Below are positions 39,607 through 50,338 of a DNA stretch of 64,000 nucleotides, one piece after another. Origin of the DNA: Salmonella phage vB_SenS-3. The notes below the pieces were generated by a model. That model saw nothing but the letters and a program-made list of their open reading frames with translations, ran no database searches and was not told where the DNA came from. Each line of letters opens with the position of its first letter. The first letter of the stretch is position 1. Both the position numbers and the translations under genes were made by a program. Location: the sequence record OR896822.1; one strand, given 5' to 3'.

Positions 39607-39636
39607 CTTCTCCAAGCAGAAATTTTAAAAATGTAC

Positions 39637-39666: not shown

Positions 39667-39695
39667 AGTTATATAAGTTGATGAGAGGAATCAGA

Positions 39696-39971: not shown

Positions 39972-40008
39972 CTGATACAGCACTTGAGCAAGTTCTTTAA
40001 AATTTGAC

Positions 40009-40038
40009 TTGCTCAAGTGCCTTAAAACTTGATATAAT
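40009..40038 (+). promoter_or_regulatory. sigma70-type promoter heading a tRNA transcription unit
   Basis: -35 TTGCTC, 18 bp, -10 TATAAT; about 120 nt leader then tRNA-Tyr. Confidence 0.55.
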
Positions 40039-40162
40039 AGTTACCTAATTTGGAAACATATCTGAATGAGAAGTAATTAAGCGAGTTGCTTTGAGGGATA
40101 AAGTCAGGATAGCCGGAAATATTCCACCTTGAGTTTAACCGACTTACTTTTCATTCAAATAT

Positions 40163-40243
40163 GGGGGATTGGCTCAGTGGCGACGGCGCCTGGCTGTAGA
40201 CCGGGTATATCACGCGGAGGTTCGAGTCCTCCATCCCCCACCA
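40163..40243 (+). tRNA. tRNA-Tyr (anticodon GTA), long variable arm
   Basis: acceptor GGGGGAT/ATCCCCC perfect; anticodon stem CCTGG/CCGGG, loop CTGTAGA; T-arm GGAGG-TTCGAGT-CCTCC; CCA encoded. Confidence 0.75.
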
Positions 40244-40251
40244 AAATTAAT

Positions 40252-40326
40252 GCACCTATCGTCTAATGGTTAGGACATCAGGATTTCAATCTGAGAATTG
40301 AACTCCGATTCTCCGTGGGTGTGCCA
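40252..40326 (+). tRNA. tRNA-Glu (anticodon TTC)
   Basis: acceptor GCACCTA/TGGGTGT; D-stem GTCT/GGAC; anticodon stem TCAGG/TCTGA, loop ATTTCAA; atypical T-arm; CCA encoded. Confidence 0.6.
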
Positions 40327-40335
40327 ATTAATAAT

Positions 40336-40406
40336 TGGGGTACGCATAGGTTGCTAGTGGGCCTCCAAAACCCATGAAAAGGTTTCGAATACCTTTACCC
40401 CTGCCA
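40336..40406 (+). tRNA. tRNA-Trp (anticodon CCA), atypical
   Basis: T-arm AAGGT-TTCGAAT-ACCTT perfect; acceptor 6 bp with U1/U72 mismatch; anticodon loop CTCCAAA; CCA encoded. Confidence 0.55.
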
Positions 40407-40412
40407 ATATTT

Positions 40413-40487
40413 GCACCTTTAGCTGAGATGGATTAGCGCTTGCCTGAAGAGCTTGAGAGGTTCGTTCAATTCGAACAGGGTGCACCA
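40413..40487 (+). tRNA. tRNA, probable Phe (anticodon GAA); anticodon stem imperfect
   Basis: acceptor GCACCTT/AGGGTGC; T-arm GTTCG-TTCAATT-CGAAC perfect; loop CTGAAGA fits Phe but stem has two U-U mismatches; CCA encoded. Confidence 0.55.
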
Positions 40488-40504
40488 ATTTGAAGGAGAT
40501 GCTG

Positions 40505-40777
40505 ATGCATCCTGAAAACTTCTTTATATACTGTACTAGTCCTTTGCTTAAACGCCGGATTAATAAAGTATATCACTACAGAGCTAGTCAACAGCCTTAT
40601 GTTTATGATTCTAGTGGAGATCATATTCCACTTGAGCAACTAGGGACTGATTATATGGTTTTGAAGCACTTTAATGAGGCGAAGATCTCTAGCGTTCATA
40701 ACCGACAAAACTCTAAAACGTGGTGGCATAAGAAGCGTAAGAAAGGCATCAAATTTCTTAAAAATGTAGTTGCTTAA
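40505..40777 (+). CDS. hypothetical basic protein
   Basis: ATG 40505 six nt after RBS AAGGAG, immediately downstream of the tRNA cluster. Confidence 0.45.
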   Translation: MHPENFFIYCTSPLLKRRINKVYHYRASQQPYVYDSSGDHIPLEQLGTDYMVLKHFNEAKISSVHNRQNSKTWWHKKRKKGIKFLKNVVA

Positions 40778-40798
40778 ATCCTTAAAGTTCTGTATAAT
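40770..40798 (+). promoter_or_regulatory. sigma70-type early promoter
   Basis: -35 TTGCTT, 17 bp, -10 TATAAT; -35 overlaps stop region of 40505..40777. Confidence 0.6.
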
Positions 40799-40826
40799 TA
40801 TTACATAAATTGAACTGGAGAACTAG

Positions 40827-41015
40827 ATGAAAGCACCTAAACCGAAATTAGTTAAGTTCGACTGCTGTGATACTGAAATCTTATTTACTAAGTTTGGTGA
40901 ATTTAAGATGTGTGAATGTGGAACATGTGGTTACGATCATGGTGATGGATATTATTGCAGAACCCTAGGGCCTTCTGAACTAATCCACTTCTCATGGCCG
41001 GAAAGTAAAGAATAA
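40827..41015 (+). CDS. small Cys-rich (zinc-ribbon-like) protein
   Basis: 62 aa; CC...CEC..CGYDH..YC cysteine pattern. Confidence 0.45.
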   Translation: MKAPKPKLVKFDCCDTEILFTKFGEFKMCECGTCGYDHGDGYYCRTLGPSELIHFSWPESKE

Positions 41016-41083
41016 TACGACCGTTGGCTGAATGGCTTAGGCGGAGGCCTGCAAAACCTCCTTATGTGAGTTCGAATCTCATG
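41008..41083 (+). tRNA. tRNA-Cys (anticodon GCA)
   Basis: acceptor CGACCGT/GCGGTCG; anticodon loop CTGCAAA; T-arm GTGAG-TTCGAAT-CTCAT; CCA encoded; 5' end overlaps stop of 40827..41015. Confidence 0.7.
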
Positions 41084-41235
41084 CGGTCGTCCAATTTGCT
41101 GAAAGAATTGTTAAATCAATTCAGGCACGCGTAGGAACACTGCCTCAGTAATTGAAAGATGAGGCACGGTTTGGAGAGGTATGCCGCTACACGCTACGGT
41201 GCTAACTCCGTCTAGGTGAAAATCCTAGTCAGCAA

Positions 41236-41318
41236 TATAAATTTAGGGTCGTTAGCCAAGCGGTTTGGCGGTGGACTGTTAATCCATGTCGAAAGACAAC
41301 GTAGGTTCGAATCCTACA
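41236..41318 (+). tRNA. tRNA with GTT anticodon (Asn-like) and 13-nt variable arm
   Basis: acceptor GGGTCGT/ACGGCCC; anticodon stem GTGGA/TCCAT, loop CTGTTAA; T-arm GTAGG-TTCGAAT-CCTAC perfect; CCA encoded. Confidence 0.6.
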
Positions 41319-41431
41319 CGGCCCGCCATATTCTATGTAGGATTAAGTAAACCGGTAGCCAACCAGCTATCATTACTGATATCGAATTCAGTCACAGATA
41401 CCATTTTTCACTAACAACTGAGGAAATAGAT

Positions 41432-41617
41432 ATGACAACTCGTGCAATTGCTCGACTAGAAGCTGATCGTGATAATCTGATTAATAATATTAAGGTTCGT
41501 GGTAATATTATTAAGGCTCTGAAAGCTGAACTTCTTGAAGAACTTCAAGGTCAAGTAGAGCGTCGTGAAGCTCTAAAAGAGGTTGAGGAAGCTATCGAAA
41601 AACTCAAGGCTGAATAA
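41432..41617 (+). CDS. hypothetical coiled-coil protein
   Basis: 61 aa ORF with RBS GAGGAAA. Confidence 0.45.
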   Translation: MTTRAIARLEADRDNLINNIKVRGNIIKALKAELLEELQGQVERREALKEVEEAIEKLKAE

Positions 41618-41620
41618 ATT

Positions 41621-42202
41621 ATGCACGGAATATCCTTACCCATTCCAGGGTTTGAGGAGTACTTAGTAAGTTTGGATGGGTTAGTATTTAGTATCAAATC
41701 AAACAAAATACTAACCCCAATAACCAGTAATTACGGATACTTATCTATACGTCTCCATAAAAATGGTCAACAGAGAAATACCGGTGTACATAGGATTTTA
41801 GCATGTGCATTTAAGAAATTACCAAGTCTAGACTCTGAACTAGAAGTTGACCATATTAACACAGACATTACTTATTGGGGTCTTAATAACTTACAAGTGC
41901 TCACAAAAGAGCAGCATCTAGAAAAGACTTTAAAAGATAAAGGATTTAGTAAACTAAACCATGATAATTGTTGTAAGGATTGTGGTAAAGCTATTTCTTT
42001 AAAAGCTGAAAAATGTCAGGAGTGCTCTTCACATAAACCAAAAGATATCTCTATAACTAAAGAAATAATCGAGGTTACAGTAAGAGAGCTAGGCTGGTCA
42101 GGTGCAGGGAGAAAGTTAAATTATTCAGATAATGGGTTGCGTAAAAGATACACTTCTTTAGGAGGCAATCCTAAAGAACTTAAAAAGTTAAAGGTACTAT
42201 AG
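41621..42202 (+). CDS. HNH homing endonuclease (NUMOD-like N-terminus)
   Basis: 193 aa; motifs HRILACAF...VDHINTD...NNLQ; Cys-rich C-terminal region; stop codon overlaps 5' end of tRNA-Asp. Confidence 0.7.
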   Translation: MHGISLPIPGFEEYLVSLDGLVFSIKSNKILTPITSNYGYLSIRLHKNGQQRNTGVHRILACAFKKLPSLDSELEVDHINTDITYWGLNNLQVLTKEQHLEKTLKDKGFSKLNHDNCCKDCGKAISLKAEKCQECSSHKPKDISITKEIIEVTVRELGWSGAGRKLNYSDNGLRKRYTSLGGNPKELKKLKVL

Positions 42203-42267
42203 TCTAACGGTTAGGATACTCCCCTGTCACGGGAGAGGTAGGGTTTCGATTACCCTTAGTACCGCCA
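42193..42267 (+). tRNA. tRNA-Asp (anticodon GTC)
   Basis: acceptor GGTACTA/TAGTACC perfect; anticodon stem CTCCC/GGGAG, loop CTGTCAC; T-arm AGGGT-TTCGATT-ACCCT; CCA encoded. Confidence 0.85.
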
Positions 42268-42273
42268 AATTAT

Positions 42274-42350
42274 ACATCCATAGCTCAACTGGTCAGAGCT
42301 ACCGCCTCTTAAGCGGAGGGTTGAAGGTTCAAGTCCTTCTGGGAGTACCA
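42274..42350 (+). tRNA. tRNA-Lys (anticodon CTT)
   Basis: D-stem GCTC/GAGC; anticodon loop CTCTTAA; T-arm GAAGG-TTCAAGT-CCTTC; acceptor with one A-A mismatch; CCA encoded. Confidence 0.65.
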
Positions 42351-42553
42351 AACAAATAGAGTAAAGGCTACAGTAGGTGCACCCTTACGGACTGCTACAC
42401 CGGACTCTATTCATTAACAAACATTCTAGCGTGGTGGAGAGGGGACACCAGCTGTGCGAGGGTAGAAGCTTGTTCGATTCAAGTGAAAGAATGGTTCTCG
42501 TAAATCCGCAGCAGTGATAGTAGGTTCAAGTCCTACCTAGATTGACTTATTAT

Positions 42554-42627
42554 GCGTTCGTAGTTAAAAGGTATAATTTTTGGTTGCCAACCAGAAGTTG
42601 AGGGTTCGATTCCCTCCGACCGCACCA
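42554..42627 (+). tRNA. tRNA-Gly (anticodon GCC)
   Basis: T-arm GAGGG-TTCGATT-CCCTC; acceptor GCGTTCG/CGACCGC (one mismatch); anticodon stem TTTGG/CCAGA, loop TTGCCAA; CCA encoded. Confidence 0.65.
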
Positions 42628-42878
42628 AATTTAGGTTTCTGCTTCCTAGAGAACGGACTCCTAGATAAACAAGGCGATGAGTTTCCGGCCGGTTCTAGTC
42701 GCTGAAAATCCTCCCGACCAGGTAGGTGTAGGTAAACGAAAGTTTACTTATTGAGTAGGTTCCGATAGATCGGCGGATCTATTCTGGCATTTAAGAGAAG
42801 TCTCGCAAACTTCTTTGTCAGCAGAGCGTTTGAAGCGTGAGGTGGCCTACACAATAAGTAAATTTATTAAAAACTCAT

Positions 42879-42907
42879 TTGCTATTTCACTTAATTCTCT
42901 TTATAAT
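42879..42907 (+). promoter_or_regulatory. sigma70-type promoter heading a tRNA transcription unit
   Basis: -35 TTGCTA, 17 bp, -10 TATAAT; tRNA-Pro begins about 33 nt downstream. Confidence 0.6.
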
Positions 42908-42939
42908 ATATCTTATAAAGTGAGTTAACAAAGAATATT

Positions 42940-43017
42940 CTCCGTGTAGCTCAGTTTGGCCAGAGCGTTCCGTTTGGGGCGGTAGGGTCGGGGGTTCAAA
43001 TCCTCCCACGGAGACCA
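42940..43017 (+). tRNA. tRNA-Pro (anticodon TGG)
   Basis: acceptor CTCCGTG/CACGGAG perfect; D-stem GCTC/GAGC; anticodon loop TTTGGGG; T-arm GGGGG-TTCAAAT-CCTCC; CCA encoded. Confidence 0.8.
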
Positions 43018-43023
43018 AACAAT

Positions 43024-43101
43024 TGCGGGTTAGATCTCTGGTAGAGATCGCTAGTCTCATAAGCTAGAAAGAGGTAGGTTAGATTCCTACACCCGCTTCC
43101 A
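43024..43101 (+). tRNA. tRNA with CAT anticodon (Met or Ile2), U1/U72 mismatch
   Basis: D-stem GATC/GATC; anticodon stem CTAGT/GCTAG, loop CTCATAA; T-arm GTAGG-TTAGATT-CCTAC; CCA encoded. Confidence 0.7.
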
Positions 43102-43120
43102 ATTTAATAGAGGATACGAA

Positions 43121-43285
43121 ATGAAATTATTTCGATTGGTAGTAAGTGATAGACGGTCTAGCAAAGATCGTTCGAAGTATACCTTAGCCCATTATGGGAA
43201 AGATGAAAATGAAGTAATGGCTGAATTTGGTATTAATCATCGCTACTTAGAAGTTTACTCTATTAAGGAAGTTTATCCGTATTAA
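43121..43285 (+). CDS. small hypothetical protein (54 aa) between tRNAs
   Basis: ATG-initiated ORF found by eye (not in the six-frame list, under 60 aa); ends at the nucleotide before tRNA-Lys. Confidence 0.3.
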   Translation: MKLFRLVVSDRRSSKDRSKYTLAHYGKDENEVMAEFGINHRYLEVYSIKEVYPY

Positions 43286-43363
43286 GGGTCGTTAGCTCAA
43301 TTGGTTAGTAGCACTTGCCTTTTAAGCAATAGGTTGAAGGTTCGAGTCCTTCACGACCCACCA
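43286..43363 (+). tRNA. tRNA-Lys (anticodon TTT)
   Basis: acceptor GGGTCGT/ACGACCC perfect; anticodon loop CTTTTAA; T-arm GAAGG-TTCGAGT-CCTTC; CCA encoded. Confidence 0.8.
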
Positions 43364-43372
43364 AATTACTTT

Positions 43373-43446
43373 GCTCGGTTAGTTTAATGGGAGAACCCCG
43401 TCTTTACACGGCGGTTGCGATAGTTCGATTCTATCACCGAGTACCA
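43373..43446 (+). tRNA. tRNA-Val (anticodon TAC)
   Basis: acceptor GCTCGGT/ACCGAGT; anticodon stem CCGTC/GGCGG, loop TTTACAC; T-arm GATAG-TTCGATT-CTATC; CCA encoded. Confidence 0.75.
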
Positions 43447-43471
43447 ATTAACTCAAAATAAGGAATTGCAA

Positions 43472-43825
43472 ATGCAATTATCAAGCAAGATTCAAGGCTA
43501 TTTTGGTCATGTAACAATGGAGTTCGCTATCTCTAAAGGTTGGGATTTCGAGCAAGATCTAGCTGAGTTCTACAAAGATATTGATCTGAACGTACCATAC
43601 ATGGGACTCTCCACTGGTCAAGAGATCACAGAAGGCGATGTGTTCAAGGCAAGTCAAGGTGAGGTAACACCTAGTTTTGCCAAGTTCTGGTTAGGACTTA
43701 CTTTGAAGGAAGATGCACCAGAGGATGGTGTGGTTATGCAGAGTATGCACTCTGGAAGCTCTGATTACCTTTTCGTTAGCGACGTTAAGGAACTACAAGA
43801 AATCGCTAAAAATGTACTTGCTTGA
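43472..43825 (+). CDS. hypothetical protein
   Basis: ATG 43472 after RBS AAGGAA (listed ORF starts at TTG 43466); acidic protein. Confidence 0.5.
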   Translation: MQLSSKIQGYFGHVTMEFAISKGWDFEQDLAEFYKDIDLNVPYMGLSTGQEITEGDVFKASQGEVTPSFAKFWLGLTLKEDAPEDGVVMQSMHSGSSDYLFVSDVKELQEIAKNVLA

Positions 43826-43846
43826 TGCTTAATTTCTTGTTATAAT
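43818..43846 (+). promoter_or_regulatory. sigma70-type promoter overlapping the 3' end of CDS 43472..43825
   Basis: -35 TTGCTT, 17 bp, -10 TATAAT; leader then forms an 8-bp hairpin GATGAGGA/TCCTCATC. Confidence 0.55.
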
Positions 43847-44108
43847 ATTTATATAAATTGATGAGGAGAAATCCTCATCAAAGTTCACTAAGGTATTAGC
43901 TCGACCTAGGGCTGGCTGCCAAAAAGCACAATTGCAATTAGACCCCTAATGGCGGGGGATACTTTGCAATAAGTTCTAGATTAGTCCACTAGATTCAGTG
44001 GCAACTGAATAGTGTATCGGGTTTGTGAAGAGCGGTTATCCTCTACTGGCTAATGTCTGAGGGTAATACGCACACCGAGCTAATAGCCTTAGTAAACTTA
44101 AAGATTTT

Positions 44109-44187
44109 GGGGAATGGGTCTGCTTGGAGTGGACACCTCGCTTGCACCGAGGATATCAGAAGAGTTCGAATCTCTTATTCTCCACCA
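44109..44187 (+). tRNA. tRNA-Ala (anticodon TGC), copy 1
   Basis: acceptor with G3-U70 wobble pair (Ala identity element); anticodon stem CCTCG/CGAGG, loop CTTGCAC; CCA encoded. Confidence 0.65.
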
Positions 44188-44192
44188 AATTC

Positions 44193-44268
44193 GGGGTCAT
44201 AGGTTATTTGGTTAAACTTACTGCCTTGCAAGCAGTGGAACTCAGTTCAATTCTGAGTGACTCCACCA
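44193..44268 (+). tRNA. tRNA-Ala (anticodon TGC), copy 2
   Basis: acceptor GGGGTCA/TGACTCC with G3-U70; anticodon stem ACTGC/GCAGT, loop CTTGCAA; T-arm CTCAG-TTCAATT-CTGAG; CCA encoded. Confidence 0.75.
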
Positions 44269-44287
44269 AACAAATTAAGGAAATAAT

Positions 44288-44506
44288 ATGGTATTCTTAG
44301 CAGCCTCTGTAGTTCTTGCAGCTTTAGCACTAGCTATCTATTTTAGAACTATTAAAGATTTAGCTAAAGAAAAGAAAACTTTCTTTACTGATTATTCTTG
44401 GGGCGCTCCATATAACGTCCGCTTTATCAGCTTAGAAGCTATGCTGATAATGGTATTCAGTGGCATAGGTTCCATTGTTGCAGGGTTACTATTTATTTCT
44501 AACTAA
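44288..44506 (+). CDS. small membrane protein
   Basis: 72 aa with two hydrophobic helices. Confidence 0.45.
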   Translation: MVFLAASVVLAALALAIYFRTIKDLAKEKKTFFTDYSWGAPYNVRFISLEAMLIMVFSGIGSIVAGLLFISN

Positions 44507-44513
44507 ATAAAAT

Positions 44514-44594
44514 GGGGATGTGGCGAAATTGGCAGACGCGCTAGATTTAGGTTCTAGTCTTCGGGTGTGGGTTCGAGTCCCTCCATCCCTACCA
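44514..44594 (+). tRNA. tRNA-Leu (anticodon TAG), long variable arm
   Basis: acceptor GGGGATG/CATCCCT; anticodon stem CTAGA/TCTAG perfect, loop TTTAGGT; T-loop TTCGAGT; CCA encoded. Confidence 0.7.
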
Positions 44595-44768
44595 AACATT
44601 GGATTAACTCATGATGAAAACTCCTATAACTGATATCTGGTTAGCTGTTAATACATCAACTAAAGAGTATGTGTTTATAGAGTATGGTCAGAGGTATGAC
44701 CAAAAGATGTATAATCTCATACTTCCAGTATCTGCTAATGAAGTTTATGATTTAATCCTGAGATCTAC

Positions 44769-44861
44769 GGAAGAGCAAATCGATTAGGTGACGAAAACCG
44801 CTTGGAAAGTGGCTGACTTGTTAAAGCAGGCTTGAGAATTCGAATCTCTCTTCTTCCGCCA
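44769..44861 (+). tRNA. tRNA-Ser (anticodon GGA), long variable arm
   Basis: acceptor GGAAGAG/TTCTTCC; anticodon loop TTGGAAA; T-loop TTCGAAT; CCA encoded; 93 nt. Confidence 0.6.
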
Positions 44862-44882
44862 AACAACTAATAGGGAATATAA

Positions 44883-45125
44883 ATGAAAGTCAAGATTATG
44901 ATGTTGGATTTAGCTAATGATAAGTTTTTCTTGCGTCATACATTCCCTAGTAAGCAAGCTTTAGAGTTTCATATCAAGTACGCAATAGGCATGAAACTTC
45001 CTGAGCGAGAAATATTTGATAAAGCATGTGATACTGGAGTTATTTATGTATGGCAAACAACCTATCATGATAATCCAGAAGATCTTCGAAAAGAAGTAGA
45101 ACAAATACTAGAAGATAGGACGTAG
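44883..45125 (+). CDS. hypothetical protein
   Basis: 80 aa ORF; 3' end overlaps the start of tRNA-Ser(TGA). Confidence 0.5.
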   Translation: MKVKIMMLDLANDKFFLRHTFPSKQALEFHIKYAIGMKLPEREIFDKACDTGVIYVWQTTYHDNPEDLRKEVEQILEDRT

Positions 45126-45199
45126 TGGTATGTAACCGGTCTTGAAAACCGGCCCGCTGTAGTGATACGGTGATGGTTCGACTCCATTATCTTCTGCCA
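45109..45199 (+). tRNA. tRNA-Ser (anticodon TGA), long variable arm
   Basis: acceptor AGAAGAT/ATCTTCT perfect; anticodon stem CCGGT/ACCGG perfect, loop CTTGAAA; T-arm GATGG-TTCGACT-CCATT; CCA encoded. Confidence 0.75.
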
Positions 45200-45524
45200 A
45201 ATCTTGAAGTATGCCGGAATCGGTAGACGGGGCTTCCTAAAGGGCGTAAGGGGAACATCCACTCCTCATAAGATACCCGAAAACGAGGCTGAGATAACTG
45301 GTCTATCTCGTGAAGGTTCGAGTCCTTCTGCTTCTTGATATTCATCAATGGCTCAAAGTGTAACGGTGCTATTTGATGCTCTTAGTAAGACTTTCCCGAC
45401 ATGCGTTCGGGAGTAAGCTGCTAAGGCTAGAGTAGAAGAGTTTCGGAGAGCCGCCACAATTGAAGTCTTTAGAATGGGTATCGCCCTTTAGCCCCTCCGA
45501 AAGGGATAACTAGAGATTTCAATT

Positions 45525-45601
45525 GTGGTTATATCATAATTGGTTAATGATCCTGATTGTGAATCAGGCCTATGTGGATTCGAATTCCACTAACCACCCC
45601 A
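45525..45601 (+). tRNA. tRNA-His (anticodon GTG)
   Basis: acceptor GTGGTTA/TAACCAC perfect; D-stem TCAT/ATGA; anticodon stem CCTGA/TCAGG, loop TTGTGAA; T-arm GTGGA-TTCGAAT-TCCAC; CCA encoded. Confidence 0.85.
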
Positions 45602-45607
45602 AATATT

Positions 45608-45682
45608 GCGTCCTTATTTCAATGGAAAGAATGTAAAGCTACGAACTTTACGATCGGGGTTCGATTCCCTGAGGATGCACCA
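45608..45682 (+). tRNA. tRNA-Arg (anticodon ACG)
   Basis: acceptor GCGTCCT/AGGATGC; anticodon stem TAAAG/CTTTA perfect, loop CTACGAA; T-loop TTCGATT; CCA encoded. Confidence 0.75.
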
Positions 45683-45706
45683 ATTAACTTATACAGGAAC
45701 TAAAAT

Positions 45707-45907
45707 ATGGCTGATTTCTGCAAAGAATGCTCTATCGATATGTGGGGCAAAGATACTGGTGATCTTTCTGGTCTGATTACAGAAGCCGAAGTTAAAGAAG
45801 GCTATGGTGCTGTTGTAATCTGTGAAGGTTGTGGTATTATTCGTGTTGACCATAATGGTAAACGTCTAGAAGAACCAGATCCAATTGCCACGGTTCCTGT
45901 AGAATAA
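45707..45907 (+). CDS. small Cys-rich protein
   Basis: 66 aa; CKEC...CEGC cysteine pairs (zinc-ribbon-like). Confidence 0.45.
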   Translation: MADFCKECSIDMWGKDTGDLSGLITEAEVKEGYGAVVICEGCGIIRVDHNGKRLEEPDPIATVPVE

Positions 45908-45914
45908 AAATTAT

Positions 45915-45990
45915 TGGGATGTAGATCAATTGGCAGATCGTCGGCCTCTGACTCCGAAGGTTCCACGTTCGATCCGTGGCATCCCAGCCA
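45915..45990 (+). tRNA. tRNA-Gln (anticodon CTG)
   Basis: acceptor TGGGATG/CATCCCA perfect; D-stem GATC/GATC; anticodon loop CTCTGAC; T-arm CCACG-TTCGATC-CGTGG; CCA encoded. Confidence 0.7.
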
Positions 45991-45996
45991 AACAAT

Positions 45997-46072
45997 TGGA
46001 GAGTAGTGTAACGGTTAGCACAACGGCCTTTGACTCCGTTAATGGTAGGTTCGATTCCTCCTTCTCCAGCCA
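45997..46072 (+). tRNA. tRNA-Gln (anticodon TTG)
   Basis: acceptor TGGAGAG/TTCTCCA; anticodon stem ACGGC/TCCGT, loop CTTTGAC; T-loop TTCGATT; CCA encoded. Confidence 0.65.
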
Positions 46073-46078
46073 ATTTAT

Positions 46079-46153
46079 GCGTGATTAGTTCAGTGGCTAG
46101 AATAACTGGCTTCCAACCAGTAGACACGAGTTCGACTCTCGTATCCCGCACCA
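46079..46153 (+). tRNA. tRNA-Gly (anticodon TCC)
   Basis: anticodon stem ACTGG/CCAGT perfect, loop CTTCCAA; T-arm ACGAG-TTCGACT-CTCGT perfect; CCA encoded. Confidence 0.75.
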
Positions 46154-46169
46154 AATATAAGGAAACGTT

Positions 46170-46391
46170 ATGGACGTTTTTGAGTTTCGTAATAAAAACC
46201 CCAATAGACGAGTTTTAATTATTGGTGAAACATATAGAGCTTATGAGCAAGAAGATGGTTCGGTTTTATTAAATGATGAAAAACAAGGCTATAGCTTTCA
46301 TCCAGAAGAAACATATGAAGAATTTCGTACTAAGTTTCTTTTACCAGACTGGCTAGCAATAGCTGAGCAAAGAGAATCCAAAGATGGCTGA
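46170..46391 (+). CDS. hypothetical protein
   Basis: 73 aa ORF with RBS AAGGAAA. Confidence 0.45.
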   Translation: MDVFEFRNKNPNRRVLIIGETYRAYEQEDGSVLLNDEKQGYSFHPEETYEEFRTKFLLPDWLAIAEQRESKDG

Positions 46392-46535
46392 TAATCTAAA
46401 GCTAAAAGTAGATAAACGAATGAAGTGCGTTGAGGTTGAGTTGGGTGAAGAACGTTTAAAACTCTCCTTCGAATTCTTACAGCAGTTGGCTATGACAGTA
46501 ATGTCTGATAAGTCTCCTGTATTTGAAAAAGAAAT

Positions 46536-46558
46536 CCCGTTGAAATAACGGGTTTATT
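46536..46558 (+). terminator. putative terminator hairpin just upstream of tRNA-Thr
   Basis: CCCGTT-GAAATA-AACGGG hairpin followed by TTTATT. Confidence 0.45.
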
Positions 46559-46632
46559 GCTCCTAAAGCATTGCTGGCGATGCAGTTGCCTTGTAAGCAT
46601 CTGAACCGGGTTCGATTCCTGGTGGGAGCACC
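46559..46632 (+). tRNA. tRNA-Thr (anticodon TGT)
   Basis: acceptor GCTCCTA/TGGGAGC; D-stem GCAT/ATGC; anticodon loop CTTGTAA; T-arm CCGGG-TTCGATT-CCTGG; CCA encoded. Confidence 0.75.
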
Positions 46633-46647
46633 AAATTTAAAAATTCA

Positions 46648-46677
46648 TTTGCCTTCTCTCTTATTTCTTGTTATAAT
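46648..46677 (+). promoter_or_regulatory. sigma70-type early promoter
   Basis: -35 TTGCCT, 18 bp, -10 TATAAT, conserved leader. Confidence 0.55.
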
Positions 46678-46707
46678 ATTTATATAAATTAATGAGAGGG
46701 AAACCAA

Positions 46708-47001
46708 ATGAAACGTTATCTTTCTGTCGTATTCCAAACGGGTGGTCAACGCTACACTTATGAATTTCCTGAGTCCTGGAAAATTAAAGAAGGTGATCAA
46801 GTTGTTGTATTAACACCTCGTGAAGGCTTCAAAGTAGTAACGGTTAAACAAGTATTTCCAAAAGATCACGAACCATCTAAGTCTATTCAGTACAAGATGA
46901 TTCATGGTCTAGTTCGTAAAGTACCACGAACTGAGGTAGAAGTAGATAAGACTGGTGAAGCTAAATACCAGTATACTTCTTACTTAGACGAGTTGTTATA
47001 A
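46708..47001 (+). CDS. hypothetical protein
   Basis: 97 aa ORF with conserved leader RBS. Confidence 0.5.
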   Translation: MKRYLSVVFQTGGQRYTYEFPESWKIKEGDQVVVLTPREGFKVVTVKQVFPKDHEPSKSIQYKMIHGLVRKVPRTEVEVDKTGEAKYQYTSYLDELL

Positions 47002-47207
47002 TGAGAATTACTTTCACAGAAAAGATTATGGGCAATGGTGTTATGATCATTACCGCATGGGATGGTAATCAGTGGTGTAGTGTTTCAGGTATTAAGCCTG
47101 AAGAACAAACACTAGAAAATATCTCAAAGATTAAGCGAAGAATGGCAGAACGTGCACGACTTCCAGGTGCTCCTAGAAATGGTAAACGTTCTGCAATTAA
47201 ATGTTAA
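47001..47207 (+). CDS. hypothetical protein
   Basis: 68 aa ORF; start overlaps previous stop (ATGA). Confidence 0.45.
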   Translation: MRITFTEKIMGNGVMIITAWDGNQWCSVSGIKPEEQTLENISKIKRRMAERARLPGAPRNGKRSAIKC

Positions 47208-47208
47208 T

Positions 47209-47285
47209 GCTTCGGTAGCTTAGCGATCTAAAGCACTCGGCTGATAACCGAGAGATCGGGGGTTTAAATCCCTCCCGGAGTACCA
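47209..47285 (+). tRNA. tRNA-Ile (anticodon GAT)
   Basis: acceptor GCTTCGG/CCGGAGT with G-U pairs; D-stem GCTT/AAGC; anticodon stem CTCGG/CCGAG perfect, loop CTGATAA; CCA encoded. Confidence 0.75.
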
Positions 47286-47381
47286 AATTTAGGAAGTAAG
47301 ACTATGCGTCCAGGAAAGTTTAAAAAAGCTAATTGGTCTAAAGAGTATAAAGAATACTTACTTAGTCTAGTAAAACATAAT

Positions 47382-47454
47382 AGTTAGTTGGCAGAGAGGT
47401 TATGCACCTCCTTCATACGGAGCGCCTACAGTGGTTCAAATCCACTACTAACTA
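47382..47454 (+). tRNA. tRNA with CAT anticodon (Met or Ile2)
   Basis: acceptor AGTTAGT/ACTAACT perfect; anticodon loop TTCATAC; T-arm AGTGG-TTCAAAT-CCACT perfect; CCA not encoded. Confidence 0.65.
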
Positions 47455-47821
47455 CTAAACAGAGGATCAGATCATTGTACCAGATCCTGCTGAGAAGAGA
47501 GTCCACATTCTATAAATGGCCGGGCGTGACAGCAGGAAGTAGACTGCAACTCCATGCTATACAGGAGTATAAATGTAGAAGCTAGGGCTTTAGATAGCCA
47601 TTGTCTTAGCGTGAGCAATCACGTAGTTGCAACAGACCAGGGGATAGCAACGTTAAAATCAAAGCTCCTGTGCTTATTAAACTGAATGGGACTATCAATC
47701 CACAAGCCGGACTACGAGCGATTATCGGGTATTCACTTAATAAGCAAGCCTGCCTTCCAGTTTTTATCTTGCTTCTGGGTTAACAAAAAGCTGAGCCAAA
47801 TTCTAGCATCAGGGAGATCTA

Positions 47822-48190
47822 ATGAAAGCATATCAAAGTCTTAAGTCTGGCGTAATTAACCTTGTTCATAACAATCAGATCATTCAACTATATTCTAAAG
47901 ATGGTGAACTTAAACAGAAAGTTCTAGTCGAAGATCTAGAAGGTATCACACCTCACTTTGACCCTGAGGCCTTTCGCATTGTAGATGTGGAAGTGATTCC
48001 TCAAGTCGAGGGTGGTCAGCACCTAAATGTCAACGTGTTAAGCCGTGATCAGCTTTTGGATGCACAGAAACATCCTGAAAAATATCCTCAGTTGACCATC
48101 CGTGTCTCTGGATATGCTGTTCGATTTAACGCATTGACGCGTGAACAACAGAACGACGTTATTAGTCGTACATTTACTCAGGCGATATAA
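47822..48190 (+). CDS. grcA: GrcA/YfiD-like autonomous glycyl radical cofactor protein
   Basis: C-terminal [12 protein letters not shown]...[37 protein letters not shown] closely matches E. coli GrcA and the PFL C-terminal glycyl-radical domain. Confidence 0.8.
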
Positions 48191-48271
48191 TGGGGTTTGG
48201 ATATGATTTCTCCCAGCTACGCAAGGTAGTCGAGCAAACTCCATTTATCTCCCAAGTTTTAGGAGAAATGT

Positions 48272-48571
48272 GTGGATCGAGCATTAAGACGCCATCACCG
48301 GCAACGTGTGAAAAACAATCGCAAAAAGTATTGGACAGTCTTCCCACATGAAGAAAGTCCTAAGCGGTTAGGCATTATCACTACCACTCCTTGCATCTGT
48401 TCTTGTTGGATGTGTGGGAATCCTCGCAAATACTATAAGAATAGTAAAGCAGGTATGAAAATCTCGGAGATTAAAAAGATGGATGCAATGATTATGGGCA
48501 TCACCTTTACAGGCGGTATCTCTGATGAATTCGACGGTTTTGTAACTCAGGATATTGTCGAAATTATCTAA
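48272..48571 (+). CDS. hypothetical protein
   Basis: 99 aa ORF, basic N-terminus. Confidence 0.45.
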   Translation: MDRALRRHHRQRVKNNRKKYWTVFPHEESPKRLGIITTTPCICSCWMCGNPRKYYKNSKAGMKISEIKKMDAMIMGITFTGGISDEFDGFVTQDIVEII

Positions 48572-48582
48572 TTAATAATAAA

Positions 48583-48616
48583 CCCCAGCTATTGAATAGG
48601 TAGTCTGGGGTTTTCT
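48583..48616 (+). terminator. rho-independent terminator
   Basis: CCCCAG...CTGGGG hairpin followed by TTTTCTTG. Confidence 0.55.
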
Positions 48617-48638
48617 TGTAGTATGTAGGATTTTCGAA

Positions 48639-48824
48639 ATGAAAATTTTTAAAGTGAACTATAGCGGCCTGTGGTTAGGTGGTACAGCTATTGTCGTTGC
48701 AGAAACTGCAGAAGAAGCAATCGAACTGGCTAGAAACCATAGAAGTTCTATAGAATTCGAGGATGTGACAGTAGAAGAACTCCCGAGCAGTGGGGTAGTA
48801 TACAACGACAACGGAGATTACTGA
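48639..48824 (+). CDS. hypothetical protein
   Basis: 61 aa ORF. Confidence 0.4.
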   Translation: MKIFKVNYSGLWLGGTAIVVAETAEEAIELARNHRSSIEFEDVTVEELPSSGVVYNDNGDY

Positions 48825-48882
48825 TGTTATATTTTGAAGTTCGCCCACATTAAGTTAATTTAAAAGACTTAATGGAGGTAAT

Positions 48883-49278
48883 ATGAGCCGTACATATCGT
48901 AAACAATCTGGTGATCGTCACTGGCGTGATGCACATCGTTCTACTTATAATTTTCATAGCACTAATATCCGTATTCCGTATATCTACACGGATAGGGATG
49001 GTAGGCAGTGGAAGTATTATCAAGTTCGATCCAATGAAGCATGGGCTAAAACTTGGGATGAAATTGAGAAGGAGATTCAGGAAAATATCATCCGTAACGA
49101 GAAGAAAGATGGGCACTGGTGGGATTCTGTTAGTAGGAATGTTAAGTGGCATTCTAACAAAATGGTTCGTCAGGGAAACCGTCGCGAACTTCATCGTGTG
49201 ATGAAAGATCCAGAAAATTACGACTATAATCGCGATCATGATCTGCGTAAGCGTGGGTTATGGTGGTGCTACGACTAA
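48883..49278 (+). CDS. hypothetical protein
   Basis: 131 aa, Arg/Trp-rich; RBS GGAGG. Confidence 0.5.
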   Translation: MSRTYRKQSGDRHWRDAHRSTYNFHSTNIRIPYIYTDRDGRQWKYYQVRSNEAWAKTWDEIEKEIQENIIRNEKKDGHWWDSVSRNVKWHSNKMVRQGNRRELHRVMKDPENYDYNRDHDLRKRGLWWCYD

Positions 49279-49295
49279 TTTCATAAATAATTCAT

Positions 49296-49324
49296 TTGCT
49301 AAAACCCTCTCCTTTTGATATAAT
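49296..49324 (+). promoter_or_regulatory. sigma70-type early promoter
   Basis: -35 TTGCTA, 17 bp, -10 TATAAT, conserved leader. Confidence 0.6.
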
Positions 49325-49354
49325 ATTTATATAAATTGATGAGAGGGCTTTGAA

Positions 49355-49627
49355 ATGAAAGAAGCAGAAATTAATGAAATGGCTAGAATATTCATCGTTT
49401 CCTATATGCAAGGCAGTTGCAATAGTTTATTCGAGTCTGCTATAGTATTTCAGGAAATGTTAGCCGAGAAAGGCGTACATATGGAAGATACTGAAATTGA
49501 AGATCTTCTAATGGAAACTTGTAGTAGTGCTGAAGTCTTCCAGTGTGGTAACTGTAATTGGTGGTGTCCAGAGCATGATCGTTCTGAAGAAGGTTCCTAC
49601 TGTTCCGATTGTGAAGGAGAAGAATAA
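49355..49627 (+). CDS. hypothetical Cys-rich protein
   Basis: 90 aa; CGNCNWWC and CSDC motifs. Confidence 0.5.
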   Translation: MKEAEINEMARIFIVSYMQGSCNSLFESAIVFQEMLAEKGVHMEDTEIEDLLMETCSSAEVFQCGNCNWWCPEHDRSEEGSYCSDCEGEE

Positions 49628-49926
49628 TGAATAAGTTTATTATTGCTCTAGTAATTTCAGCAGTTAGTTTCGGTTCTCTGGCATCTACCAAAGTTTCTAT
49701 GAAAAATGGTAATGTTAAAGTTCAGCAGAATGGCATTACCACCGAATATGGTAAAGTACGTGATGTAAAAGAACGTAATGGCAAAGTAGAAATATATACT
49801 AATAAAAACTTCTCTACTCCGGCTGTTACTGTTAGTAAACGTGGTGAAATCACTACTCAACGTACTAATAGTTCTGATTCTTTTACTTGCCGTTATGACT
49901 GCGGCTTTGAAGGTGAAGATGAGTAA
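49627..49926 (+). CDS. secreted hypothetical protein
   Basis: 99 aa with N-terminal signal peptide. Confidence 0.5.
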   Translation: MNKFIIALVISAVSFGSLASTKVSMKNGNVKVQQNGITTEYGKVRDVKERNGKVEIYTNKNFSTPAVTVSKRGEITTQRTNSSDSFTCRYDCGFEGEDE

Positions 49927-50338
49927 TTTAGACCCTAGAATTAAACATGCAGTTGAAGAAATCCAAGATCAAATCGATGAGGATTTCACTGTTTGGTCAA
50001 GATTTGGTAATGGTGAAGGTTGTCAGCTTTATAGCATGAAAATGGGTATCTCGATTGAACTTAGTATCAATCCCGAGGGTAACGTAGAAGCCCAACCCAT
50101 GTTCAGTGTTCCAGGCTTCTCTGGATTTGTTATGGGCATGAAACTATGTCTACCAAATAAACATCTTTACCGCGTTATCTGTCAGCTAGAAACAATTAAA
50201 CATTTCTTACCAGAAGATAACATTAATGACTACTATCATGAAGTTGTAGCAGCTTACATGATGAAAGAACGCAAACGTCGGAGAGCAGAACGTGAAAGAG
50301 CTAAATCTCAACAGTCTAGTACAGATTCCAGCAACTGA
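49919..50338 (+). CDS. hypothetical protein
   Basis: start set at ATG overlapping previous stop (GATGAGTAA); upstream extension of the listed ORF unlikely. Confidence 0.5.
   Translation: MSNLDPRIKHAVEEIQDQIDEDFTVWSRFGNGEGCQLYSMKMGISIELSINPEGNVEAQPMFSVPGFSGFVMGMKLCLPNKHLYRVICQLETIKHFLPEDNINDYYHEVVAAYMMKERKRRRAERERAKSQQSSTDSSN

What the first reader, a model, noticed from the sequence alone, without database searches (positions are those of the whole stretch)
47455..47821. About 370 nt ORF-free, GC-enriched region between the last tRNA and grcA
No plausible ORF lies here (the listed 65 aa ORF overlaps tRNA sequence), yet the segment is richer in G+C than flanking genes and has several inverted repeats (for example GGATCAGATC...CAGATCC). 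It lies downstream of the tRNA cluster without an intervening terminator and could be a processed small RNA, a structured 5' leader regulating grcA, or a riboswitch-like element.
Basis: seen in the sequence. Interest (0 to 1): 0.5.

Follow-up and report, generated by a model that had tools for sequence, protein, structure and literature searches.

The report
New structured RNA beside phage tRNAs
The gene-free stretch between the last tRNA and grcA in this T5-like phage most likely encodes an intricately folded non-coding RNA of about 325 nt, which recurs in modular forms at the ends of tRNA clusters across the T5 phage family, matches no catalogued RNA family, and has no known function.

Summary
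The stretch has no conserved ORF and no terminator-like site. Its G+C excess is small, and a single-sequence fold is no more stable than shuffled sequence. Comparison with relatives shows what it is. The same element follows a tRNA gene in Epseptimavirus, Sugarlandvirus, Pectobacterium and Enterobacter T5-like phages. T5 itself lacks it, with only 13 nt between tRNA-Met and grcA. About ten helices are kept through compensatory changes. They include two hairpins with complementary loops, a GNRA-capped hairpin, an H-type pseudoknot with an A-rich linker, and a long stem holding a hairpin with a CYAUCAA loop, followed by an invariant CAAGCCUG. Formal pair counts give 92-98% paired against 30-46% for slid controls. 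No Rfam 15 family matches, and none of T5's annotated stable RNAs matches. The gene downstream differs between lineages, so this is not a grcA leader or riboswitch. The best reading is a stable non-coding RNA, transcribed with the tRNAs and cut out of their transcript. In context and build it resembles GOLLD and ROOL, but it belongs to neither. Function is unknown; expression was not tested.

The parts
46649..46677 (+). Sigma-70-like promoter (TTGCCT-17-TATAAT with TG). It is the likely start of the transcription unit that carries tRNA-Ile, tRNA-Met, the element and grcA.
   Evidence: scores it 10 of 12. It sits just after tRNA-Thr, where T5 annotates promoter P11. No terminator-like site follows before grcA.
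47382..47455 (+). tRNA-Met(cat). Its 3' end marks the 5' edge of the element.
   Evidence: ARAGORN and Rfam tRNA at 48.6 bits. In every relative the element starts 0-10 nt after a tRNA: Met, Val or Thr.
47456..47779 (+). Body of the non-coding RNA, about 325 nt. The 3' end is inferred.
   Evidence: 148 phage records match at least 80% of its length. It has modular relatives in other genera. Covariation is shown.
47464..47487 (+). P1 hairpin, GGAUC/GAUCC with an inner 3-bp stem.
   Evidence: Relatives keep it as AAGUUCA-GGC/GCC-UGAGCUU (GSW6) and AAGAUC-GGC/GCC-GAACUU (L026). RNAalifold predicts it. L001, KKP 3953 and class B carry a larger 5' domain in its place.
47486..47536 (+). P2, CCUGCUG/CAGCAGG. 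It encloses a module that is nearly invariant in class A (GAGAAGAGAGUCCACAUUCUAUAAAUGGCCGGGCGUGA).
   Evidence: Only one-sided changes to G.U are seen (L026, phiR2-01). Support is weak, and RNAalifold prefers an extended P1 instead.
47549..47568 (+). Hairpin hp1, ACUCC/GGAGU with a 10-nt loop.
   Evidence: Compensatory ACUCU/AGAGU in L026 and ACUCA/UGAGU in DU_PP_V. Helix 1 is 97.2% paired.
47582..47609 (+). Hairpin hp2, CUAGGGC/GUCUUAG with a 14-nt loop.
   Evidence: Three of its seven pairs change on both sides: AU/GC/GU, GC/AU and AU/GC (helix 3, 99% paired).
47556..47598 (+). Loop-loop pairing between the hp1 loop (GCUAUA, 47556-47561) and the hp2 loop (GAUAGC, 47593-47598). It could form within one molecule or between molecules.
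   Evidence: GCUAUC:GAUAGC in classes A and C becomes GCCGUC:GACGGU in class B, so two pairs change on both sides (helix 2, 97.8% paired). The window copy forms 5 of the 6 pairs.
47610..47623 (+). Hairpin hp3, CGUGA-GCAA-UCACG, capped by a GNRA tetraloop.
   Evidence: The loop varies only within GNRA in class A: GCAA, GCGA, GAAA, GUAA; DU_PP_V has GAGA. The stem is replaced by GUCUGA/UCAGAC, GUUUGG/CCAGAC or a long hairpin in other classes. In Sugarland a tRNA-like RNA1 homologue sits at this position.
47626..47670 (+). H-type pseudoknot. Stem a is GUUGC 47626-47630 with GCAAC 47647-47651. Stem b is CAGGGG 47638-47643 with CUCCUG 47665-47670. The A-rich linker is GUUAAAAUCAAAG 47652-47664.
   Evidence: Stem a also appears as GUCG/CGAC, GUGG/CCAC and GUGC/GCAC. 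Stem b also appears as CUGGAA/UUCCAG, CGGGA/UCCCG, CCCAA/UUGGG and GAUC/GAUC. All 6 pairs of stem b change on both sides.
47673..47744 (+). Long stem LS, CUUAUUAAACUGAAU/AUUCACUUAAUAAG. It encloses hairpin hpC and a variable region.
   Evidence: 11 of 14 pairs change on both sides, 94.2% paired. Classes B and C keep pairing with entirely different sequences. RNAalifold predicts it independently.
47688..47701 (+). Hairpin hpC with the conserved 7-nt loop CUAUCAA (CYAUCAA across the family).
   Evidence: The loop is conserved in all classes. The stem covaries: GAGA/UCUC, GAAGG/CCUUC, GGAAG/CUUUC, GCGG/CCGC.
47745..47752 (+). CAAGCCUG motif, present in nearly every member examined. It probably pairs long-range with CGGGC at 47521-47525.
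   Evidence: Columns invariant or nearly so in alignment A3; the exceptions seen are CAAACCUG in TrudiGerster and CAAGCCUA in My1. RNAalifold pairs 47518-47525 with 47748-47754. Class B keeps (C/U)AGGUUU:AAGCCUG and DU_PP_V keeps GGGCUUG:CAAGCCU. Support is moderate.
47756..47779 (+). 3' hairpin UCCAG/CUGGG. Its loop contains CUUGCUU, which could pair back to AAGCAAG (47742-47748) as a second H-type pseudoknot.
   Evidence: RNAalifold predicts it. U.G becomes C-G in L026 and L022. Classes B and C have a strong C(UUCG)G-capped hairpin at this position. The pseudoknot is inference only.
47780..47821 (+). grcA leader and ribosome-binding site (AGGGAG 47811-47816). This is not part of the RNA family.
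   Evidence: The same GCTGAGCCAAATTCTAACATC-GGGAGATCTA precedes grcA in phages that carry a 64-aa ORF instead of the element, and part of it in T5-type phages.

Best explanation
Window 47456-~47779 (+ strand) is most likely a gene for a highly structured non-coding RNA. It belongs to a previously uncatalogued, modular family found at the ends of tRNA clusters in T5-like phages (Demerecviridae).

Shown here:
- The family exists in several genera.
- It has a conserved order of helices: 5' hairpin or domain; two hairpins with complementary loops; a GNRA hairpin; an H-type pseudoknot with an A-rich linker; a long stem holding a CYAUCAA-loop hairpin; CAAGCCUG; and a 3' hairpin.
- These helices are kept by compensatory substitutions.
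- Whole modules are gained or lost between phages.
- It is not tied to grcA.

Inferred:
- It is transcribed from the promoter-like site at 46649-46677 together with tRNA-Ile, tRNA-Met and grcA.
- Its 5' end is made when the 3' end of tRNA-Met is matured. Its compact fold and 3' hairpin then protect it, so it accumulates as a stable RNA. T5's RNAI, RNAIII, RNA1 and RNAX are annotated as stable RNAs in the same region.

Guessed:
- It acts in trans during infection, in the same field as the tRNA island: support of phage translation, or defence against host nucleases that attack tRNAs. It could do so as a scaffold, a decoy, or a self-assembling particle like GOLLD and ROOL.
For: - Conservation and spread. 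278 phage records match the interval, 148 of them over at least 80% of its length. 68 Klebsiella-type records hold a 420-620-nt version. Divergent versions occur in Pectobacterium DU_PP_V and My1, Enterobacter KKP_3711, Salmonella KKP_3831 and phage Eos.
- Covariation in domain I. 98.1% of cells pair, against 30-40% with slid partners. 6 of 18 pairs change on both sides (4 of 500 shuffles reach this), and the covariation score is 0.253 against 0.154 (0 of 500).
- Covariation in the pseudoknot, long stem and hpC. 92.5% pair, against 38-46% slid. 19 of 29 pairs change on both sides (0 of 500), and the score is 0.498 against 0.150.
- Hand-segmented helices across all classes pair in 87-100% of cells, with unrelated sequences.
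- RNAalifold on class A alone recovers P1, hp1, hp2, hp3, stem b, LS and the 3' hairpin.
- A covariance model built only from class A places phage Eos and HS37 as its two best hits at the right positions, with stem b and LS compensated. The scores are weak: 16 and 11.9 bits, E = 0.06 and 0.43.
- Hallmarks of folded RNA are present: loop variation confined to GNRA, UUCG-capped terminal hairpins, and an A-rich pseudoknot linker.
- Strand. G.U outnumbers A.C by 26 to 9 in the helices. All neighbouring genes and the promoter-like site are on the + strand.
- Precedent. The T5 RefSeq record annotates eight 'stable RNA with unknown functions' features in the same tRNA region.
- Not coding. The only recurrent ORF has no Shine-Dalgarno sequence. 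Its ATG is ACG in three members. Its length runs from 6 to 80 aa and it is frameshifted in the window. Its paired amino-acid changes (Q/L with A/V) are the compensatory changes of stem b.
Against: - No expression data were available, so transcript ends and stability are inferred.
- The single-sequence fold is not more stable than shuffles (z = +0.38).
- Sampling is shallow: about 25 distinct sequences from a few lineages, so many 'changes on both sides' go back to few events.
- The alignment used was fitted to the model's structure, and the helices were segmented by hand.
- The class-A model does not find classes B and C with default filters.
- P2, the long-range helix and the 3' pseudoknot are weakly supported.
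- T5 does without the element. About 100 phages keep only its last ~150 nt. Domain I is deleted in Sepoy and KKP_3711. It is therefore dispensable, at least in some hosts.
- Nothing here bears directly on function.
Confidence: 0.75

Rival explanations
1. It is a cis-acting 5' leader of grcA: a riboswitch, a thermosensor, or a processing or stability element. On this view it controls translation or decay of the grcA message and has no role as a free RNA.
For: - In class A the element is directly upstream of grcA with no terminator between them.
- About 100 phages that have lost the 5' two-thirds still keep the last ~150 nt next to grcA.
- RNAalifold draws weak pairs between 47498-47504 and the ribosome-binding-site region 47813-47820.
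Against: - grcA follows tRNA-Met after 13-23 nt in T5 and relatives, or follows a 64-aa ORF, without the element.
- In classes B and C the element ends in a strong hairpin followed by a promoter and unrelated genes.
- No riboswitch model matches.
- The conserved core lies 70-270 nt from the ribosome-binding site.
Confidence: 0.08
2. It encodes a small protein: the 43-aa ORF at 47554-47685, which is 58 aa in close relatives and is annotated 'hypothetical protein' in several records.
For: The ORF is open at 58 aa in most class-A copies. It is annotated in GreteKellenberger, vB_SenS-3 and Sugarland.
Against: - There is no Shine-Dalgarno sequence upstream; the preceding bases are GACUGCAACUCC.
- The start codon is ACG in L053, Eos and GlastoCabaret.
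- Length is 6, 20, 22, 42, 43, 58, 62, 76 or 80 aa in different members.
- A 1-nt deletion shifts the frame in the window.
- The correlated substitutions match RNA pairing rather than codon positions.
- The start codon lies inside the covarying hairpin hp1.
Confidence: 0.05
3. It is a non-functional remnant: the decaying residue of an intron, of a homing-endonuclease cassette, or of repeated recombination in a hot spot. On this view chance hairpins give the appearance of structure.
For: - The site is a hot spot for insertions and deletions, with at least four different fillings between tRNA-Met and grcA.
- Homing endonuclease genes are common in T5 tRNA regions.
- Modules come and go.
- The fold is not unusually stable.
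Against: - Pairing is preserved through many double substitutions in about ten helices, across lineages whose sequences are otherwise unalignable. That indicates selection on the fold.
- Single-stranded motifs are conserved across genera: GUAGAAG, CGUUAAAA, CYAUCAA and CAAGCCUG.
- No exon context exists for an intron, because the upstream tRNA-Met is complete.
Confidence: 0.07
4. It works at the DNA level, for example as an origin, a nick site or a protein-binding array, or it is read from the minus strand.
For: T5 DNA has site-specific nicks, and T5's annotation marks one elsewhere in the region. The minus strand folds about as well.
Against: - G.U pairs outnumber A.C by 26 to 9 on the + strand.
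- Pseudoknots, GNRA and UUCG loops are RNA features.
- All flanking genes and the promoter-like site are on the + strand.
Confidence: 0.03

Closest known systems
[quoted passage not shown]
   Same: - Encoded by phages and prophages, often near tRNA islands.
- One studied example lies downstream of a Met-tRNA.
[quoted passage not shown]
- tRNAs are sometimes embedded in a variable linker.
- Function unknown. All of the above are from PMC12286853.
- The element here follows tRNA-Met. Its 3' half (pseudoknot, long stem, CAAGCCUG) is the universal part and its 5' half varies. Sugarland-type copies carry a tRNA-like RNA1 homologue inside.
   Different: - No match to the Rfam GOLLD model at E up to 10.
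- Size is 290-620 nt, against more than 800.
- Hosts are enterobacterial virulent phages.
- Assembly into oligomers was not tested.
ROOL RNA (Rumen-Originating, Ornate, Large)
   Same: A phage or prophage RNA near tRNA islands, with a complex fold, several pseudoknots, no known protein partner and unknown function (PMC12286853).
   Different: No match to the Rfam ROOL model. The helix order and conserved motifs differ, and most copies are shorter.
Stable RNAs of the phage T5 tRNA region (RNAI, RNAIII, RNA1, RNA2, RNA2H, RNAIV, RNA3, RNAX). Phage T4's species 1 and 2 RNAs are similar (own knowledge).
   Same: RNAs of unknown function encoded among phage tRNA genes, on the same strand and in the same transcription units. 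The window has homologues of seven of them elsewhere in the cluster.
   Different: None shares sequence with 47456-47821. T5 has only 13 nt at this site. The only link is that T5 RNA1's homologue is inserted into the Sugarland version of the element.
Theta (minimal HDV-like) ribozymes next to phage tRNAs
   Same: Structured, pseudoknotted RNAs found adjacent to viral tRNA genes (PMC10879173 abstract).
   Different: No HDV-like family matches. The part next to the tRNA is the most variable part here, and the conserved core lies 100-250 nt away. A role in cleaving the tRNA junction is therefore unlikely.

Membership tests
GOLLD RNA | Match to the family's covariance model (Rfam 15) | tested here: not met
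   No GOLLD hit at E up to 1 in window 33000-50000. None at E up to 10 in window 47440-47840 or in five relatives including Sugarland.
GOLLD RNA | Phage or prophage location near a tRNA island | tested here: met
   The element sits directly after tRNA-Met at the end of a 28-tRNA cluster, and after a tRNA in all relatives.
GOLLD RNA | Conserved 3' region, variable 5' region, and sometimes an embedded tRNA | tested here: met
   The pseudoknot, long stem and CAAGCCUG are present in nearly all classes, while the 5' modules differ. A tRNA-like RNA1 homologue is embedded in Sugarland-type copies. This is a resemblance in build, not evidence of homology.
GOLLD RNA | Length above about 800 nt and assembly into a 14-mer cage | tested here: not met
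   Length is 290-620 nt. Assembly cannot be tested with these tools.
ROOL RNA | Match to the family's covariance model (Rfam 15) | tested here: not met
   No ROOL hit.
ROOL RNA | Homo-oligomeric nanocage | not testable with these tools
   Needs cryo-EM or native gels. The complementary hp1 and hp2 loops would allow contacts between molecules, but this is speculation.
T5 stable RNAs (RNAI, RNAIII, RNA1, RNA2, RNA2H, RNAIV, RNA3, RNAX) | Sequence homology to one of the annotated T5 RNAs | tested here: not met
   blastn of all eight against the window finds homologues of seven at other positions and none in 47456-47821. RNAIII gave no hit anywhere in the window.
T5 stable RNAs (RNAI, RNAIII, RNA1, RNA2, RNA2H, RNAIV, RNA3, RNAX) | Accumulates as a stable RNA in infected cells | not testable with these tools
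   No transcript data were available.
tRNA / tmRNA | Cloverleaf, or tRNA-like domain with a tag reading frame | tested here: not met
   ARAGORN finds nothing in 47456-47821. There is no Rfam tRNA or tmRNA hit there.
Riboswitch / cis-regulatory leader of grcA | Conserved linkage to the regulated downstream gene | tested here: not met
   grcA occurs without the element (T5). The element occurs without grcA (classes B and C).
Riboswitch / cis-regulatory leader of grcA | Match to a known riboswitch or leader model | tested here: not met
   The only hit is a chance-level HCV stem-loop on the minus strand (16.6 bits, E = 0.46).
HDV-like / theta ribozymes next to phage tRNAs | Nested double pseudoknot directly at the tRNA 3' junction, with a model match | tested here: not met
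   No HDV-like hit. The junction-proximal part is a simple variable hairpin.
Structured non-coding RNA (general) | Base pairs kept by compensatory substitutions above control levels | tested here: met
   0 of 500 shuffles reach the observed covariation score, and slid controls pair in 30-46% of cells against 92-98% observed. One search covers all classes.

The most novel reading that the evidence does not exclude
This is a new class of ornate phage RNA and a compact, enterobacterial counterpart of GOLLD and ROOL. It would either self-assemble through its complementary hairpin loops (hp1 GCUAUC with hp2 GAUAGC of another molecule) or bind tRNA. The invariant AUC in the 7-nt CYAUCAA loop is complementary to the anticodon loop of tRNA-Ile(GAU), and the loop also has the outline of an anticodon loop. 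On this reading the RNA acts as a scaffold or decoy that protects the phage's translation supply from host defences that attack tRNAs.
Probability: 0.15. Interest if true: 0.85.

Novelty: new variant of a known kind. Interest (0 to 1): 0.65.

Why it matters
Large, intricately folded RNAs beside phage tRNA islands (GOLLD, ROOL, and the T4 and T5 'stable RNAs') have had no known function for decades.

This family offers a workable system for studying that question:
- It sits in easily grown virulent phages of E. coli K-12 and Salmonella. The BASEL phages Bas26 and Bas27 both carry it.
- Natural comparison strains exist. T5 lacks the element. Sepoy and KKP_3711 lack one domain. About 100 phages keep only the 3' domain.
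- Its minimal form in phage Eos, about 290 nt, is small enough for structure work.

There is also a practical point. Current genome records annotate this stretch as 'hypothetical protein' or leave it blank, so a covariance model would correct several hundred phage annotations.

Tried and rejected
- Rfam scans gave nothing relevant. I ran three: 17 kb around the site, the 401-nt interval alone at E up to 10, and five relatives.
- Single-sequence folding showed no excess stability on either strand.
- Pattern scans of public collections:
  - GGAGTNTAAATG... matched mostly ribosome-binding sites plus ATG in unrelated viruses.
  - The core pattern found only T5-like contigs in metagenomes, and nothing in 185,579 species genomes.
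  - The pseudoknot-to-hpC pattern gave only known members plus chance hits inside coding sequence.
- A conserved start-stop mini-ORF (AGGAG-N5-AUG-UAG in the core) was rejected. DU_PP_V lacks that spacer and HS37 reads through.
- RNase P RNA was rejected. GAGAAGAGAGUCC and GCAACAGA look like M1 conserved regions from memory, but these motifs are not kept in classes B and C and no RNase P model matches.
- tmRNA was rejected (ARAGORN).
- A group I intron was rejected. There is no exon context and the upstream tRNA is complete.
- MAFFT could not align the 3' domain between classes. I therefore segmented helices by hand and used Infernal.
- A covariance model from class A alone found no class B or C copy with default filters, and only weak correct hits with filters off. 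The mixed alignment it produced was too rough to seed a broader model.
- Literature searches found no description of this element. One 2026 preprint on mining non-coding elements could not be opened.
Full report
**1. The observation**

The window comes from a T5-like phage of the genus Epseptimavirus. The interval is 99.7% identical to Salmonella phage vB_SenS-3. Positions 47456-47821 lie between tRNA-Met(cat), the last of 28 tRNA calls at 47382-47455, and a 122-aa grcA-like ORF at 47822-48190.

- The quoted inverted repeat is real: GGATC 47464-47468 with GATCC 47483-47487.
- No terminator-like site lies between a strong promoter-like site at 46649-46677 and grcA.
- The G+C excess is small: 0.437 against 0.398 for the window, and 14.7% of equal-sized windows are as high.
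- The fold of the single sequence is no more stable than shuffles, with z = +0.38. The minus strand gives +0.09.

Taken alone, then, the sequence gives little reason to call it structured.

**2. Relatives show a variable site and a recurring element**

The site between tRNA-Met and grcA differs among T5-like phages.

| Filling of the site | Examples |
|---|---|
| 13-23 nt only | T5 and several others; confirmed in T5's RefSeq record |
| 274 nt of A+T-rich DNA encoding a 64-aa ORF | L006, L017, L021, L004 |
| That ORF plus a hairpin plus the last ~150 nt of the window's interval | L030; roughly 100 records that match only query 213-366 |
| The full 366-403-nt ORF-free element (class A) | 148 records at 80% coverage or more |

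A 65-nt core of the element also matched Klebsiella Sugarlandvirus phages. There it is part of a 420-620-nt ORF-free stretch after tRNA-Val (class B). Further versions follow tRNA-Thr in Pectobacterium DU_PP_V and My1, Enterobacter KKP_3711 and Salmonella KKP_3831 (class C). A minimal form of about 290 nt occurs in phage Eos.

In classes B and C the element ends in a G+C-rich hairpin capped by UUCG. A typical T5-type promoter and unrelated genes follow. The only constant neighbour is therefore a tRNA gene on the 5' side, not grcA.

**3. Anatomy**

Reading the sequences side by side gives a common order of parts.

- **5' hairpin P1** (47464-47487). Some members have a larger 5' domain instead.
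- **P2** (47486-47536), enclosing a module found only in class A.
- **hp1** (47549-47568) and **hp2** (47582-47609). Their loops are complementary: GCUAUC with GAUAGC.
- **hp3** (47610-47623), whose loop stays within GNRA: GCAA, GCGA, GAAA, GUAA, GAGA.
- **An H-type pseudoknot** (47626-47670), with stems GUUGC/GCAAC and CAGGGG/CUCCUG and the A-rich linker GUUAAAAUCAAAG.
- **A long stem LS** (47673-47744), enclosing hairpin hpC with the loop CUAUCAA.
- **The near-invariant CAAGCCUG** (47745-47752).
- **A 3' hairpin** (47756-47779).

The remaining 42 nt are the grcA leader and ribosome-binding site, which phages without the element also have.

Modules are optional.

- Sepoy and KKP_3711 lack hp1 to hp3. 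KKP_3831 is otherwise like KKP_3711 but has them.
- phiR2-01 and some class-B members share an extra hairpin with the motif GGGCUGA..GAAA..UCACACAACC.
- KKP 3953 has a 160-nt insert at the same point.
- Sugarland-type copies carry, in place of hp3, a 117-nt homologue of T5's 'tRNA-like stable RNA' RNA1.

**4. Is the structure real?**

Hand-segmented helices stay paired in 87-100% of cells across members whose strands share no sequence.

| Helix | Versions seen |
|---|---|
| Pseudoknot stem b | CAGGAG/CUCCUG, CUGGAA/UUCCAG, CGGGA/UCCCG, CCCAA/UUGGG, GAUC/GAUC |
| Long stem LS | CUUAUUAA/UUAAUAAG, CUUUUCUCUUAAUC/GAUUAAGAGAAAAG, UUGUUAAUUGCA/UGCAAUUAACAG, CAAAUAUUA/UAAUAUUUG, CUUGUCA/UGACAAG |

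Formal counts agree.

| Measure | Domain I, MAFFT alignment | Pseudoknot, LS and hpC, Infernal alignment of class A plus three class-B copies |
|---|---|---|
| Cells paired | 98.1% | 92.5% |
| Cells paired with slid partners | 30-40% | 38-46% |
| Pairs changed on both sides | 6 of 18 (4 of 500 shuffles reach this) | 19 of 29 (0 of 500) |
| Covariation score, observed vs shuffled | 0.253 vs 0.154 (0 of 500) | 0.498 vs 0.150 (0 of 500) |

The loop-loop contact changes from UA/AU to CG/GC between classes.

Three caveats apply. The second alignment was fitted to the structure. The sample is about 25 distinct sequences from a few lineages. Shuffle counts are not probabilities.

Independent support comes from three directions.

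- RNAalifold on class A alone recovers P1, hp1, hp2, hp3, stem b, LS and the 3' hairpin. It also proposes a long-range helix between 47518-47525 and 47748-47754.
- A class-A-only covariance model ranks Eos and HS37 first among 37 kb searched, at the correct positions and with compensated stems, though weakly: 16 and 12 bits.
- G.U outnumbers A.C by 26 to 9 on the + strand.

**5. Not coding**

One ORF recurs. It starts at the AUG inside the hp1 loop and is annotated as a hypothetical protein in some records.

- It has no Shine-Dalgarno sequence.
- Three members have ACG in place of AUG.
- Its length ranges from 6 to 80 aa, and it is frameshifted in the window.
- Its correlated amino-acid changes are the compensatory changes of pseudoknot stem b.

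**6. What is known**

No Rfam 15 family matches: not GOLLD, ROOL, tRNA, tmRNA, RNase P, an HDV-like ribozyme or any riboswitch.

T5's RefSeq record annotates eight stable RNAs of unknown function in the tRNA region. The window has homologues of seven of them elsewhere in the cluster. None matches this interval.

Pattern scans of viral, metagenome and species-representative genome collections found members only in T5-like phages. The window holds a single copy, and the T5 tRNA region holds none. Literature searches found no description of the element.

The closest analogues are GOLLD and ROOL. They are phage RNAs near tRNA islands. GOLLD has a conserved 3' region, a variable 5' region and sometimes embedded tRNAs, and one studied example lies downstream of a Met-tRNA (PMC12286853). 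The resemblance is in context and build. Membership fails the model test.

**7. How it most likely works**

Shown:
- A conserved, covarying, modular RNA fold on the + strand.
- It always follows a tRNA gene.
- It lies inside a unit that runs from the promoter-like site at 46649-46677 to grcA and beyond. T5 annotates promoter P11 just after tRNA-Thr, as here, followed by the same order of genes.

Inferred:
- The RNA is co-transcribed with tRNA-Ile and tRNA-Met.
- Its 5' end arises from maturation of the tRNA-Met 3' end.
- It persists because of its compact fold and 3' hairpin, as do the stable RNAs annotated in T5.

Guessed:
- It acts in trans in the same field as the tRNA island, either in translation supply or in countering defences directed at tRNAs.
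- Two untested leads are recorded. The complementary hp1 and hp2 loops could join molecules together. The invariant AUC in the 7-nt hpC loop is complementary to the anticodon loop of tRNA-Ile(GAU), whose gene lies 170 nt upstream.

**8. Verdict**

It is best described as a new family of ornate phage non-coding RNA, not a grcA leader or riboswitch. Its function and its expression remain to be shown.

Noticed in passing
window 45203-45349, 45350-45456, 43894-44028, 42755-42853, 42422-42546, 41331-41403, 33441-33687 and 33929-34059: Homologues of T5's annotated 'stable RNAs with unknown functions' lie among the tRNA genes: RNA1, RNAI, RNA2H, RNAIV, RNA2, RNA3 and RNAX, at 72-92% identity. The G+C-rich, ORF-poor stretch 45200-45520 between tRNA-Ser and tRNA-His is the RNA1-RNAI block.
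   Followed up: partly
window 33482-33555: ARAGORN calls a 'tRNA-SeC(tca)' here, and Rfam gives a weak tRNA hit of 33 bits. It lies inside the homologue of T5's 719-nt RNAX (33441-33687). It is probably the tRNA-like part of that RNA rather than a selenocysteine tRNA.
   Followed up: no
window 40252-40323: Rfam finds a tRNA (35.2 bits, above the gathering score) that ARAGORN did not call, directly after tRNA-Tyr. T5 annotates tRNA-Glu at the corresponding position after tRNA-Tyr.
   Followed up: no
L060 (phage Eos, MN478377) about 654-686: Between two tRNA genes lies AGGTGATTTGCTACCTTTAAGTGCAGCTAGAAA. Its first 21 nt equal the ToxI-specific part of a published ToxI primer (PMC5772629). It may be a single pseudo-ToxI repeat, that is, an RNA decoy against the ToxIN abortive-infection system. 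The window has no copy.
   Followed up: partly
L037 (Sugarland) 1575-1691; also L068, L069, L070: A homologue of T5's tRNA-like stable RNA1 is inserted inside the Sugarland-type element, in place of hairpin hp3. In Salmonella T5-like phages the same RNA1 lies about 2.2 kb upstream as a separate gene.
   Followed up: partly
window 47453-47458: The 3' end of tRNA-Met reads ...AACTA-CTA-AACAG. Most relatives read ...AACTA-CCA-AACAG. The CCA end is therefore not encoded in this phage and a few others (L028, Ob_P, mar003J3).
   Followed up: no
L006, L017, L021, L004 (274-nt gap) and L030 2084-2500: An alternative filling of the same site is a 64-aa ORF (MLTVKIMS...) with its own ribosome-binding site. 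In L030, and in roughly 100 database phages, it is joined through a P1-like hairpin (ATCAGGCCTTTGTGCCTGAT) to only the long-stem domain and 3' hairpin of the element.
   Followed up: partly
L039 (Sepoy) 1090-1100; L061 (KKP_3711) about 790-800: Natural deletions remove exactly hairpins hp1 to hp3 and leave the pseudoknot and 3' domain intact. They would serve as ready-made domain knock-outs.
   Followed up: partly
L057 (phiR2-01) 771-800; L053, L055, L056, L068, L070: An optional hairpin with the conserved motif GGGCUGA(A/G)(G/A)GAAA(C/U)(U/C)UCACACAACC and a covarying stem is inserted just before hp1, in members of two otherwise distant classes.
   Followed up: no
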